Assembly: GCF_009914755.1 (NCBI RefSeq)
Contig: NC_060926.1
DNA length: 64,000 nt
Source of the DNA: the human T2T-CHM13v2.0 reference genome, Homo sapiens
Reading direction: 5' to 3' (one strand)
Part shown: piece by piece, positions 20,301 to 29,300 of the stretch
Numbering within the stretch: the first letter of the stretch is position 1
Layout: the number at the start of each line of letters is the position of its first letter
Notes under the pieces: model-generated
The model's database searches: none
What the model was told of the DNA's origin: nothing
Seen by the model: only the letters and a program-made list of their open reading frames with translations
Position numbers and translations under genes: made by a program

Positions 20301-23300
20301 GGTGCAATGACCAGGCTGCTGCTGCTGCTGCTGCTAATAAGAGCTGACATTTATTGAGCGCTTATGATGTGCCCAGCATTATCCTGACAACTTTACACAG
20401 ATTGATTAATTTTCATAAGAATCCTATTAAGTAGGTATTACTATTATCCTCATTTTATAGATGATGAAACCAAGGCTCGGAGAGGCTATCCAAAGTCATA
20501 CACCAGCAAGTGGCCCCCACACCAACTTTCTCCAGCAGCTCTGCTCTTGTTGATGCTGGAGAGTTAGGGCCGGCTCTGAGCTCTTTTAGATAACCTTAAT
20601 CCGGGGAGAAGACACCTGCCCCTGAGATTCTTCTTCCAGGTTGTAGACATTAAAACCAAAGATCAGCTCCACCTTGACAGGGGAGAGTGGCAAGAGATTC
20701 TTCTTCTTGGCCAGTTCCCAATGACAACCTTTATGAAAAGATGAACAAAGGTTGTACCCCCTTGCCAAGGTCTGGGGTGGGGCAGGCCAGAGAATAGTGC
20801 CCTCTCTAATAGAGTAATTCGGCCATGAGTATGAATGGAGGCCCACACTCCTGATTCTACACCAAACCATAGGATACACACAGTGCTGGCTTCTAGCCTG
20901 AGCCGCCCCGCCTTTTTCTTCCCCTACCTTGGCTGCATATCCAAGCTGAGTCATTCCCCTCTAAATGGTCTCCCTTGGACCTGGGGATGTGTACTAGAGA
21001 CACAGTCCACCCTCGGAGGACAAACCCAGGGATGAGACCCACGCAGGGTTTTGAATTAGGCTGGGGCCATTTGGGTGGGGGATTCTGAAGTCCTAAATAT
21101 CCAGAATGTGATCTAGAAGGTGGGCCTAGAATATTCCTTGGCCTGTGGGGAGGAGAGAGAAGGGCCAAAAGGTCAAATGCAACAGCTGGACTACCAGGAA
21201 GCCATATGCCCTGAGATCAGTACAAGGGAAAGACTAAGTTCATTCCTTCTGACCCATTACCTGACTATAGAGTCTGTAGGGAACCACAAATTAGTATTTC
21301 AAAAATGAATCCTGCCATTATCTTACAATCACCATCATACAATGACATTGTGTTTTTTGTGTTAAAAGCATTAACTGATTAAATATAAAAGCCTCTTTTG
21401 AGAGCCCACTTTGGCATTTCTTCTTTTTTAATATCCTAGGGGTCCCAAAACTGGAAGTGCTGGATGGGTGGGTGGGTGGGCAGTTATTTTGACATCCTCT
21501 ACCCTTGTTGTCCACAGATGCCTTTCAGGAAGAAATGCATTTGGGCATCTGGTGTGTCCCCAGGCCGGGACTTGATGAAAACATCTCAAAGACCCCCAAG
21601 GAGAATGTGTGAACAGGCACAGCTAATGAAGCCCTCATGCTAAGTGGACTTTCCATTAGCTGGTATTTCCTGGCATTTCAATAACTTAGCCTCGTCATGT
21701 CCCAGAGGAAGGCTGATGTCTGGCCACATCTGAAAGAGGAGAGGAGGGAGGAGAAGCAGGAAACAGGAGCATACAGGTGGGAAGCAAGGAGAGCATTTTC
21801 GGATTTCCATTCTGCAGCCTGTCAGACTTCCCAGAAGGGCCATGATGAATGAGTTTATTAAAAGAATCCTGCAGTCAGAAACAGACTCCAGGAAGGCAGC
21901 AGAGGTTGCTCAGCAGGTCTGGCCTGGATTCGCTGAGTGCTGGGCCCTCTGCTGGTGGCTTCGTTTGGGGGCCTGGCAAAAGCCTAGCCCATGATGGAGG
22001 TCCTGTGGCAGGCCAGGTCTCCCTAACAGCTGAACAGGCAGGCCTCTAAGACAACTTTCAGCCCTGACTGAGTGGGTAAGTTAAATGTTAAAGGCTGAAA
22101 GGGCCAGTGCCCTTTTACAAAAGCTTATATGTAACAAAAGCCCACCAAGAGTTTGTCTAGGCTTTTCCTGGGCCTTGAAGCATGACAAGATAATGAAGGA
22201 ATTCTTAACAGGACCTGTTTAGGATTAAACAAGTTTTATCAGGGGTCTGAAGAAACTCCCCAGACCTCCACAAACAAGTTTTATTGGGGTCTGAAGGAAC
22301 TCCCCAAACCTCCATGATTTAGCAGGAGACAAGATAAGAGTAATCACCCCAGCACCTGGACCCATCTAGATTAAGTAAATTTACTGAGGCTCCAGGAGAA
22401 GGTCTTCAGGACTCAGACCTTAGTTATAGATTAGAAGAAGTTAATCACTTATGTCTTTAGATGAATGCACACTCACACGTAGACAAACAGCTTAGAAGGT
22501 ATATAAGCTCTGAAAAACTTTGTAATTTTGAGTTGGTCTGGTGATAATTTCCAGGTTTTCTCTCTGTGCCCGGTTACAGAAATAAACTCTCTTCTTTCCC
22601 AGTTCATCTGCATCTCATTATTGGGCCATGAGAATAAGCAGCTCAACCCTCGGTTTGGTCCGGGAACCGTCCCTCCTATCCCAAAGCTGTAGCCATGGAA
22701 GGGCAACCCAGAGACTGTCCTTAGTTGGTGTGGGTGACCCTGCCCCCTCCACTGGGATAGGCCAGCTGGGGGCTGAGGAGGAGGGGAGTCACCAATGAAT
22801 GAGGAGGGGATCGACTGGGTCAGACAGCCTTAAAACCTTCTGTGCTTGGAGGACACGTCTGGAGATGGCCACTGCTGGTGGGAGCAGGGAGGGGACAGGC
22901 AGGGGTCAGTAACCTTCTCTAGCAGATGCCAGTCTGGCCATAGCTGTGGAAGCTGGGATGCAGACGGGCCACAGCACCCAGCCTGGGGCTTGTGGTCTTG
23001 CACAGGATGGCGAAGCAGGGATGAAAGATTGTCTTAAGAGGTAACTAAAAGAGGGTCAGGCGCGGTGGCTCTTGCCTGTAATCCCAGCACTTTGGGAGGC
23101 TGAGATGGGTGGATCACGAGGTCAGGAGTTTGAGACCAGCCTGGCCAATATGGTGAAACCCCATCTCTACCAAATATACAAAAATTAGCCAGGTGTGGTG
23201 GCACATGCCTGTAATCCCAGCTACTCAGGAGGCTGAAGAAGGAGAATTGCTGGAGCCTGGGAGACAGAGGTTGCAGTGAGCTGAGATCATGCCATTGCAC

Positions 23301-26300: not shown

Positions 26301-29300
26301 TTATGGTTTTAATGTTTACAACCTAGAAGAGGAATTTCAGGGGCAGGTGTCTTCTCACCTGATTACACTTGTCTAAAAGAGCTCAGAGCCAGCCCTGACT
26401 CTCCAGCATCAGCAAGAGCAGAGCTATGATATGCGGCCAGATTCTCCAAATCCATCTTCACCGTTATTGGTAGGATATGACTTTGGGTAACCTCTCCAAG
26501 ACTTGGTTTCATTGTTTTGGCCTCGGCCTGTATCTGTACGATGGGATAATAGCAACATCTACTTAACAGGCTTTTATGTCACTTCCCTGATATGGCCTCT
26601 CAGAGGCAAAAGAAGTGGGAGCAGAGAAGACTGAACAAACCATGTTTAGGGGTTTGAGGGGCAGATGTGACTCCCTCTGGACAGGCCAAGAGGCAGGACA
26701 AGTAGGAGGACAGAGGTAGGAAGAGGTGATGGGGGCAAAGCAGCCATAAGAGGAGAGAATGTGACAAAGCCCAGTGTTAGCAGAAGGGGTTGGGAAGTGG
26801 GAAAACAGGACATTTACATGGGAAGGAGGAGCGGACACTGAAAAGAAGAGAAAGGCCATATAAGTCAGTCCTATGAGAGTGTATGCTACACACACACACA
26901 CACACACACACACACACACATAGGCACACATACTCAGGGAGATTATCTTAGCTGGCATGGTCATGTGGATTTCTTTCAGTCCCATGTGGGTTTAACACCT
27001 CCAGATTACTTGGAAATGTATCCAAGTCGTGCCGTAGGCCCTGGAGGGCAGGGGCTCTGTCTCACCCAGCATCAGGCCACCTTGCATCCCAGCAGGAATG
27101 GTCCCTGGGCCGTGGTACAGTCTGTGAAGTGGACTGAGCGTCATCCTGTCTAGGAGTATTCTCCCAGCACCCCACATTCACACTGTGGTGACACCAACCC
27201 AGTTGTTCTCTCCAAGGCAGAGAGGAGGGGCATCTCAGTACCATCTTCCAGAGAAGATGCTTTACTCACCCACAGGCCATGCCCAGGATGAGTGTGAGTT
27301 GCCCCCAGATGACTGCTGTCCCTCCCCTTTTTCACATGACAGGAAGGTCAGCTGGGATGGGCACTATTACCTTCTGGTCAAATAAAGGCCTGACAACTCT
27401 CCTCAGGGCCAGAGCATTGCAGGGCCCCTCTCGGAGGCCCACAGAGACCTGGCTCCTCTTCTCCCACTTCTTTATGCAGCCAAAGGTGTCAGGTACCAGA
27501 AAAGTCCCCTGTTCTGCTGGAAACAGACCAAGCACACTCCTGCCCCAGGGAAAGGGGGAAGACAACACTCTGGCTGCTGCCCACCAGCACTGCCCACACA
27601 CAGATTCAGAAGACAGGGATGTGTGTCCCCTACTCACAACATTTTGCAAAATGCCACTTGAGCAAATTATGTCATTCTCATCCAGGCAGTCACGCCTTAA
27701 GCAAAATCAACACCTCAATTTCCTTTCCCTTTTCCTGTCTGATTCAAGCAGCTCCCTCCCCTGCCCTACTGGAGTAGAGATATGATTCCTGGAAAAGCCA
27801 CCGCAAGCTGGAGCTGGGTTGAGATGCCTCAAGTACCAAGGCCAAGAGTCTGGCTTTTGTGATAGACAATAGGAGCCATCGATGTCTGTGCTGAGACTGG
27901 GAACAATGGGTTAATGACCACATTCAATGTCAGGGTAGGGGCAGGGCTGCAGCCAGGGCAGGAGAAGCAAGTGGAGGCTTTTGCTGTAATCTAACCCAGT
28001 GGCTCCCAACTGGCATAGGTTTGTCCCTCAGGGGGCATTTGGTCATGTGTGAGACACTTTTGATGGCCGTGACTTGTGTTGAGTTGTGTGGTGGGGAGGT
28101 GCTGCTGGCAAGAGTGGGCAGAGGCTAGGGATGCTGCTAGACTTCCCACAATACACAGGGGAGCCCCTACAACAAAGAAACGTCCAGCTCAAATGTCAAG
28201 AGTGCTGAGATTAAGGAATGCTGATCTAGCATGAAGAAGTGAACATGGGATCTAAGAGCAACCCTTCTGAGATATGAGACAATGAGGGGTGCAGGAGAAA
28301 GAAGAGCCACAGAAGCTGGACCAGGCTGGAACTGAGGGTCATGGGAGAAGGGGGTCACATGGAGAGAGCTAGTGGGACAAGCAGGCAGCCAGGGTGCCTG
28401 ATAGATGCTCATGGCTATCTGTTGTCTTGAGTCACAAGTGAGTTCATTGTGGGCATGGACTCACTCAATCAGCCAGTGTTGAGAAAGTCCAGGTAGGAGA
28501 TCTACACCTGCAGATCTGCAATTCCCAACCCTCTCCTGAGATCTCATAGCATCCTGTTCCCCAGGACAAAAAGCAACCTCTTCAGCACCTGCAAATCTGC
28601 AATTCCCAACCCTCTCCTGAGATCTCATAGCATCCTGTTTCCCAGAACAAAACATAACCTCTTCAGCACAGGAAGAGAGACCAGGATTCAGCTCCTGCTT
28701 TCTGTCCAGCCTCACCGTCTGCTGCTCCTTCCCCTCACATCCCACTCTCCAACCCTACTCTCCCACTGTCCTGCAAAGGCAGCATCCTCACTAGCACCCT
28801 TGCTCAGCTCCAGGTCTTTCCTGGGCCACCCTTTCTTCCCTTCCCAACTTGGCCTATTTCTACTCATCTCTGAGAATACAACTCATTTCCAAGTCCGGTT
28901 GGAAATCTTCCCTGAGCCTCACACCTAACTTGGATGCCATCTCTTGCAACTTCTATGGTATCCTGGACAAAACTCCATCCAGGACAGAGATTACATCATA
29001 CTACTTTCTAGCTTATTTTTACATTAGGCCCTTTGAGGGGCCCTTCAGGCCTGCAACCTAGTCTTTCATCTCTGCATCTTCATAGTTAATAAAGAAGTAT
29101 CTGTTGAATGAATAAATGAATTCATGGATAGATGAAGATAAGGAATTTGTGAATCAATAAACAGGAAACTGTCAAAGCTGGAAGCATGAAAAAATCTCCA
29201 AGAAATCGTTTGTAGAGAAAAGAACAGTGAGCTGGGAACCTTGATGAATACCCGCCAGAAGGGTATGAGAGTGGGGGTGAGGAGTTAGCAAGGAAGCCAT

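What the first reader, a model, noticed from the sequence alone, without database searches (positions are those of the whole stretch)
20415..26580. ~700-bp non-Alu inverted duplication enclosing ~4.7 kb within one GALNT14 intron
Seen: ~20415-21095 is the reverse complement of ~25800-26580, roughly 80% identical by eye. Both arms end in a MIR piece sharing the same derived ~9-bp deletion (atgactttgg-ta-cctctcc), so the MIR was co-duplicated. I do not recognise the rest of the arm as an interspersed repeat family. Established: intronic inverted repeats form long dsRNA (ADAR substrates, splicing modulators) and mediate inversions by NAHR. Inference: this is either a structured pre-mRNA element that effectively shortens the 11.8-kb intron or a substrate for inversion of the spacer.
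Basis: partly seen in the sequence, partly recalled or inferred. Interest (0 to 1): 0.7.

Follow-up and report, generated by a model that had tools for sequence, protein, structure and literature searches.

The report
Old inverted duplication carrying copied splice-donor
An intron of the human GALNT14 gene holds two inverted copies of a 0.7-kb stretch, one carrying a 65-base copy of the nearby exon's splice donor; it is likely an old, harmless scar of DNA repair rather than a selected RNA switch.

Summary
The inverted repeat is real: 20414-21097 versus 25799-26578, 82% identical, 4,701-bp spacer. Its non-MIR part has only these two copies genome-wide, and both arms share a derived MIR deletion, so it is one local duplication. 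(1) The right arm carries a 65-bp insert that copies the GALNT14 exon 13/intron 13 junction 4.5 kb away (91% identical), with the same nine-base donor. (2) Identity is uneven: a 244-bp indel-free core is 91% identical against about 76-79% outside, which suggests later gene conversion. A long pre-mRNA duplex is thermodynamically plausible, but there is no G-U bias towards the transcribed strand (41 vs 33), the arms lie 1.8 and 3.8 kb from the splice sites, and an ordinary inverted Alu pair loops out as much. At 82% identity it is a poor recombination substrate, and two inversion tables list nothing here. A smaller duplication of this kind appeared in 1 of 20 sampled 10-kb stretches. Best reading: a neutral template-switch and repair relic, perhaps edited in passing. 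A looped-out decoy donor is an unlikely but testable alternative.

The parts
20414..21097 (+). Left arm of the inverted duplication; likely the parent copy at the outer junction (its MIR runs on outside the arm to about 20336)
25799..26578 (-). Right arm (reverse complement of the left arm); its outer end cuts the MIR, so that junction is the new one
20537..20780 (+). High-identity core, left copy: 221 of 244 identical, no indels, with a 55-bp perfect run at about 20662-20716
26182..26425 (-). High-identity core, right copy
20336..20516 (+). MIR fragment (family name recalled); from 20414 on it is part of the duplication and carries the shared ~10-nt deletion
26514..26531 (-). 18-bp insertion found only in the right-arm MIR; no source above chance in the window
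25877..25941 (-). 65-bp insertion found only in the right arm: copy of the last 31 nt of GALNT14 exon 13 and first 33 nt of intron 13, same orientation as the gene, donor GT at 25909-25908
   Evidence: (D4)
30343..30406 (-). Source of the insert: exon 13 / intron 13 junction, authentic donor GT at 30375-30374
   Evidence: exon from the hub's gene table
21098..25798 (.). Spacer of 4,701 bp, no inverted symmetry of its own; holds an Alu (23059-23354) and a 19-bp G-rich tandem array (24867-25163)
29316..29614 (-). Alu inverted relative to the spacer Alu (84% identical); this pair interleaves with the duplication and offers a second long duplex

Best explanation
This is a two-copy local inverted duplication of about 0.68 kb that likely arose by a replication or repair template switch in an early primate or older ancestor, was likely homogenised later in its 244-bp core by gene conversion, and then gained in its right arm a 65-bp copy of the exon 13 splice junction, likely as a repair patch; it is likely neutral. 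Shown: two copies, shared MIR deletion, new junction at the right arm's outer end, uneven identity, source of the insert. Inferred: the template-switch origin, conversion as the cause of the core, the age, and neutrality. The arms are predicted to pair in the nascent RNA and would then be edited by ADAR much as inverted Alu pairs are, as a by-product.
For: Two copies only with sharp ends and a truncated MIR at the right outer end. Flank divergence at non-CpG-prone sites is 0.23-0.29, about twice the 0.09-0.17 among 10 pairs of 5 Alus in the window; the core is 0.09. The low-divergence stretch exceeds shuffles (p about 0.001-0.004 for windows of 100-244 columns; 1 of 60 shuffles in a change-point test) and is bounded by heterologies on both sides. 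No G-U excess on the pre-mRNA strand: 41 vs 33 overall (p=0.42), 7 vs 7 in the core. Both arms took indels of 18 and 65 bp and a 20-40 bp replacement, all of which break pairing. Background: 1 of 20 sampled 10-kb stretches holds a genome-wide two-copy inverted pair (about 200 bp, 88%), and the same gene holds another two-copy 63-bp direct duplicate 1.5 kb apart. Inverted duplications were the commonest class among 733 non-MEI inversion calls (277; median 284 bp), mostly with microhomology (PMC12350158, passages).
Against: No outgroup sequence could be examined, so conservation, age and orientation are untested. Purifying selection on both cores would give the same identity profile as conversion. 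The G-U test has little power (14 transitions in the core). A random 65-nt source within 10 kb would contain a donor only about 1.1% of the time, and the copy kept the donor side better (1 of 33 mismatches) than the exon side (5 of 31): p=0.015 if the source intron is neutral, 0.095 if not, and 0.07-0.23 when the ragged end is trimmed. None of the 20 sampled stretches had an arm this long.
Confidence: 0.68

Rival explanations
1. Functional RNA duplex with a looped-out decoy donor: the arms pair in the pre-mRNA, bury the nearby cryptic acceptors and expose the copied 5' splice site in a 65-nt loop, tuning exon 13-14 splicing, intron retention or inclusion of a poison or 54-nt in-frame exon.
For: Duplex of -922 kcal/mol with helices of 57, 39 and 27 bp; the insert is excluded from the inter-arm helix in the cofold. 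These values exceed the medians of edited dsRNAs (297 bp, 31 contiguous bp, -410 kcal/mol; PMC11838218, passages). The donor nonamer is identical to the real one. Candidate acceptors give exons of 54 nt (in frame, open), 67, 106 and 181 nt.
Against: No RefSeq transcript among 13 has an exon here (hub table). The donor is middling: 11 GT sites in the scanned 12.2 kb score higher on a recalled weight matrix, 9 of them inside this intron. The acceptors have 10-15 pyrimidines in 20, and 29% of the intron's 878 AGs reach 12. No G-U strand bias. None of 25 GALNT14 relatives holds the copy-derived peptide (weak, as isoforms are clustered at 90%).
Confidence: 0.08
2. Footprint of an ancient inversion: staggered breaks inverted the 4.7-kb spacer and left inverted copies at both breakpoints, so the repeat is the product of an inversion rather than its substrate (mechanism recalled from the inversion literature).
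For: The outer junction is ancestral on the left and new on the right, as this model predicts.
Against: A simple inverted insertion predicts the same outer junction; the inner junction has no repeat landmark to polarise it.
Confidence: 0.15
3. Duplicated regulatory DNA: the 244-bp core is an enhancer-like element kept by selection in both copies.
For: Core is indel-free and more than twice as conserved as the flanks.
Against: RefSeq lists no functional element in the window (hub table); a tract bounded by heterologies is what conversion gives; no chromatin data seen.
Confidence: 0.06
4. Live NAHR substrate: the spacer flips between the arms today.
For: Conversion-like homogenisation implies that the arms have exchanged sequence at some time; validated inversions have repeats as short as 140 bp (PMC13629690, passages).
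Against: 82% identity and a 55-bp longest perfect run. No start or end coordinate beginning 3095 or 3096 on chr2 among 373 inverted regions from 41 genomes (PMC10150506 Table S1); none beginning 3091 or 3092 in the 612-candidate hg38 table (hg38 place recalled; that catalogue filters at >90% identity, so this is weak).
Confidence: 0.03

Closest known systems
Short local inverted duplications of replicative (template-switch, MMBIR-like) origin (PMC12350158, passages; PMC7954356, passages)
   Same: Unique sequence copied in reverse a few kb away, sharp ends, no retrotransposon hallmarks.
   Different: Longer than the 284-bp median of polymorphic cases, old and 18% diverged, with a homogenised core and later inserts.
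Class 2 templated sequence insertions (PMC5110952, first two of four parts read)
   Same: The 65-bp insert has no target-site duplication or poly(A), at most 2 nt of microhomology and 3 unmatched bases at one end; the source is intact and transcribed.
   Different: Source is 4.5 kb away in the same intron rather than distant; it spans an unspliced exon-intron junction; it is about 9% diverged, so old and probably fixed.
Inverted Alu pairs and other long intronic dsRNAs edited by ADAR (PMC11838218, passages)
   Same: Long predicted duplex within one pre-mRNA, stronger than the median edited dsRNA.
   Different: Mostly non-repeat sequence; loop of 4.7 kb is over twice the median; editing not shown.
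Inverted-repeat-mediated (NAHR) polymorphic inversions (PMC3961182 and PMC13629690, passages)
   Same: Inverted arms around a kb-sized unique spacer.
   Different: Arms far below the usual identity; no inversion listed here.

Membership tests
Two independent insertions of an interspersed repeat | Arm matches many copies genome-wide | tested here: not met
   2 of 2 and 3 of 3 candidates, all local; controls gave 40 hits. Only the outer ~100 bp is MIR. No Dfam search was available.
Local inverted duplication | Shared derived characters and one new junction | tested here: met
   Shared ~10-nt MIR deletion (absent in 17 of 18 other MIRs); MIR cut at the right outer end.
Segmental duplication (UCSC definition as given in PMC13629690) | At least 1 kb and at least 90% identity | tested here: not met
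   684 bp, 82%.
NAHR-mediated polymorphic inversion | Highly identical arms (>90% in the catalogue's BLAST filter) | tested here: not met
   82% overall; only the 244-bp core reaches 91%; longest perfect run 55 bp.
NAHR-mediated polymorphic inversion | Both orientations seen in humans or apes | tested here: inconclusive
ADAR-edited long dsRNA | Long, stable predicted duplex | tested here: met
   -922 kcal/mol, 57-bp helix against medians.
ADAR-edited long dsRNA | A-to-I sites on both arms | not testable with these tools
   No editing database; literature search gave nothing on this locus.
Selected RNA structure | G-U bias or compensatory change on the transcribed strand | tested here: inconclusive
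   41 vs 33 (p=0.42), core 7 vs 7; low power, no orthologues.
Class 2 templated insertion | No target-site duplication or poly(A); microhomology or untemplated bases | tested here: met
   Junctions.
Class 2 templated insertion | Source in a distant region; polymorphic | tested here: not met
   Source 4,466 bp away; polymorphism not tested.
Cryptic or decoy exon | Usable donor and acceptor | tested here: inconclusive
   Donor identical to the real one; acceptors weak to moderate.
Cryptic or decoy exon | Junction reads or an effect on splicing | not testable with these tools
   None of 13 RefSeq transcripts uses it (hub table); no RNA-seq on hand.

The most novel reading that the evidence does not exclude
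A repair patch copied GALNT14's own exon 13 donor into one arm of an older inverted repeat, so that the pre-mRNA duplex hides the cryptic acceptors and displays a twin 5' splice site in a 65-nt loop: a structure-gated decoy or poison-exon switch, opened by ADAR editing, built wholly from non-transposon duplication scars.
Probability: 0.06. Interest if true: 0.72.

Novelty: new member of a known kind. Interest (0 to 1): 0.27.

Why it matters
As most likely read, it matters little: one clear example of how template switching, conversion and repair patches pile up in intronic DNA, and a non-Alu long duplex useful as an ADAR test case. If the copied donor is used or binds U1 under control of the duplex, it would show a route to new splicing switches from repair scars in a gene with clinical associations (recalled), and could be tested at once in public RNA-seq.

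Tried and rejected
Rfam scan of 18000-31500: 13 matches, none at gathering score and none in the 244-bp cores or arms; mostly Alu-derived. Looking for window sources of the 18-bp insert, the 40-bp replaced stretch and the four flanks: none clearly above 8 shuffles each (two flanks scored 33-34 against shuffle maxima of 29 and 27, from short or gappy matches); the 65-bp insert scored 98 against at most 29. The 40-bp right-arm stretch looks instead like the ancestral MIR continuation, with the left arm changed there (by eye), perhaps by a local fold-back (12 matches in 14 columns; no null run). A larger decayed palindrome: rejected, no extension and no symmetry in the spacer. Dating the insert from orthologous proteins: inconclusive; the exon peptide is identical in 6 of 25 hits (the named ones are Old World monkeys and apes), and the D/E position varies among mammals. 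Two hits that read through into the intron suggest that the first ~27 nt of intron 13 are conserved in other mammals, which weakens the argument that the copy's donor side is specially preserved. A search for the 18-residue cryptic-exon peptide could not be run (query under the minimum length). Literature: GALNT14 + inversion + inverted repeat 0 papers; GALNT14 + RNA editing + A-to-I 1 unrelated paper; a broader search listed 20 papers, none holding GALNT14. The supplement of PMC12350158 that I could read has no inversion table; that of PMC12058530 was a scan; that of PMC11838218 held only 11 kb of text without GALNT14. Unseen supplements and closed databases (REDIportal, dsRNAscan tables, HPRC, ape inversion tables) may list this locus.
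Full report
Observation. The left arm 20414-21097 aligns with the reverse complement of 25799-26578 at 547 of 666 ungapped columns (82.1%) (E=2e-136). Homology does not extend inward or outward, and the 4,701-bp spacer has no symmetry of its own. It lies in intron 13 of GALNT14 (minus strand; 11,776 nt), 1,814 nt from the acceptor and 3,797 nt from the donor (exons from the hub's table).

Copy number and origin. The outer ~100 bp hits many MIR-like sites genome-wide (40 scored of 58 candidates; family name recalled). 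The rest finds only the local copies. A repeat control returned 40 hits, so a common family would have been seen, though the tool warns that a blank is no proof of rarity. Aligned with 18 genomic MIR hits, both arms lack ~10 nt that 17 of the 18 keep: the MIR was co-duplicated. The MIR runs on past the left arm's outer end but is cut at the right arm's, so the right outer junction is the new one. The inner junction cannot be polarised, which leaves two origins open: a simple inverted insertion by template switch, or an inversion by staggered breaks (recalled mechanism).

The right arm holds 65 bp (25877-25941) absent from the left. It matches 30343-30406 at 58 of 64 bases, scores 98 against at most 29 for shuffles, and has no third copy. 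The source is the last 31 nt of exon 13 plus the first 33 nt of intron 13, in the gene's orientation, and the donor nonamer CAG|GTAAAG is the same. A clean loss from the left arm at exactly these bounds is unlikely, so it was probably gained after the duplication. No target-site duplication or poly(A); 2 nt of possible microhomology and 3 unmatched bases, as in class 2 templated insertions (PMC5110952, parts 1-2 of 4 read), but from a near source. DNA or unspliced RNA could have been the template. A random nearby 65-mer would include a donor about 1.1% of the time, but such short copies seem common: another two-copy 63-bp duplicate lies at 51646-51708 / 53205-53267.

20537-20780 is 91% identical and indel-free, with a 55-bp perfect run; windows beyond it fall to 66-74%. 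Shuffles rarely give this (p about 0.001-0.004; 1 of 60); the run within the core is marginal (p=0.048). At non-CpG-prone sites the flanks differ by 0.23-0.29 and the core by 0.09, against 0.09-0.17 for 10 pairs of 5 Alus in the window. So the duplication is likely about twice as old as those Alus (early primate or older, using recalled Alu ages), and the core was likely reset at about Alu time. Gene conversion is the simplest cause; selection on both copies is not excluded.

RNA level. The arms are predicted to pair on the pre-mRNA strand (-922 kcal/mol; plus strand -904), with the insert left out as a loop. This beats the medians for edited dsRNAs (PMC11838218, passages), so incidental editing is likely where the gene is transcribed; not shown. 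There is no sign of selection for pairing: G-U-compatible mismatches are 41 on the transcribed strand and 33 on the other, 7 and 7 in the core. Pairing would leave 5.6 kb of intron and bring no splice signal near, and an interleaved inverted Alu pair (23059-23354 / 29316-29614, -455 kcal/mol) does the same job. The copied donor ranks 13 of 631 GT sites, tied with the real one, on a recalled matrix; upstream acceptors are weak to moderate, one giving an open 54-nt in-frame exon; no RefSeq transcript uses them. The copy has fewer changes on the intron side (1 of 33) than the exon side (5 of 31), p=0.015-0.23 by assumption; read-through proteins from other mammals suggest the source intron start is itself conserved, which favours the non-significant values.

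DNA level. At 82% with a 55-bp longest perfect run it is a poor NAHR substrate (threshold of a few hundred bp recalled). No chr2 row at these coordinates among 373 inverted regions from 41 genomes in CHM13 coordinates (PMC10150506: passages and a search of Table S1), nor in a 612-candidate hg38 table (PMC13629690: passages and supplement search; hg38 place recalled; filtered at >90% identity). Ape data could not be read.

How unusual. In 20 hand-chosen 10-kb stretches (200 kb), 2 inverted pairs had no match in the other held loci; one proved a common repeat, one a genome-wide two-copy duplication of about 200 bp at 88%. That is roughly 5 per Mb with a wide interval (0.13-28); the sample is small and none was as long as this one. 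In 1,019 long-read genomes inverted duplications were the commonest non-MEI inversion class (PMC12350158, passages). I found no paper on this element (open-access library only).

Verdict. Observation confirmed; interpretation partly supported. Most likely an old, neutral local inverted duplication with a converted core and a later repair patch (0.68). New member of a known kind; interest 0.27. The looped-out twin donor is the one feature worth a cheap look in RNA-seq (probability 0.06, interest 0.72 if true).

Noticed in passing
window 51646-51708 and 53205-53267: A 63-bp direct duplicate (87%), two copies genome-wide, 1.5 kb apart on either side of exon 52040-52127; the second copy sits in what looks like an L2 end (recalled), so the first is likely another templated insertion.
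   Followed up: partly
window 24867-25163: 19-bp G-rich tandem array, 15.6 copies, 88% matches, inside the spacer; 7 quadruplex-like patterns on the plus strand. Probably length-variable.
   Followed up: partly
window 28505-28669: 81-bp tandem duplication, 92% identical.
   Followed up: no
window 23059-23354 and 29316-29614: Inverted Alu pair (84%) that interleaves with the duplication, so the two duplexes would form a pseudoknot-like or competing pair.
   Followed up: partly
window 30349-30375: The first ~27 nt of intron 13 appear conserved in other mammals: read-through proteins P0010 and P0012 match the human intron in a shifted frame, implying a donor one A shorter there, while P0014 reads like human.
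   Followed up: partly
window 20505-20580: Local hairpin in the left arm (-13.9 kcal/mol, DNA) where the MIR continuation was replaced; possible short-range template switch at the core's outer edge.
   Followed up: partly
window 15983-16481 and 58533-59031: Two 499-bp copies, 96% identical, likely young L1 ends (recalled); the first ends the long masked block 10613-16491 just past the gene's last exon.
   Followed up: no
L039 5796-5999 and 6699-6913 (G000:C8:20105796-20106913): Another genome-wide two-copy inverted duplication, about 200 bp, 88%, 700-bp gap.
   Followed up: partly
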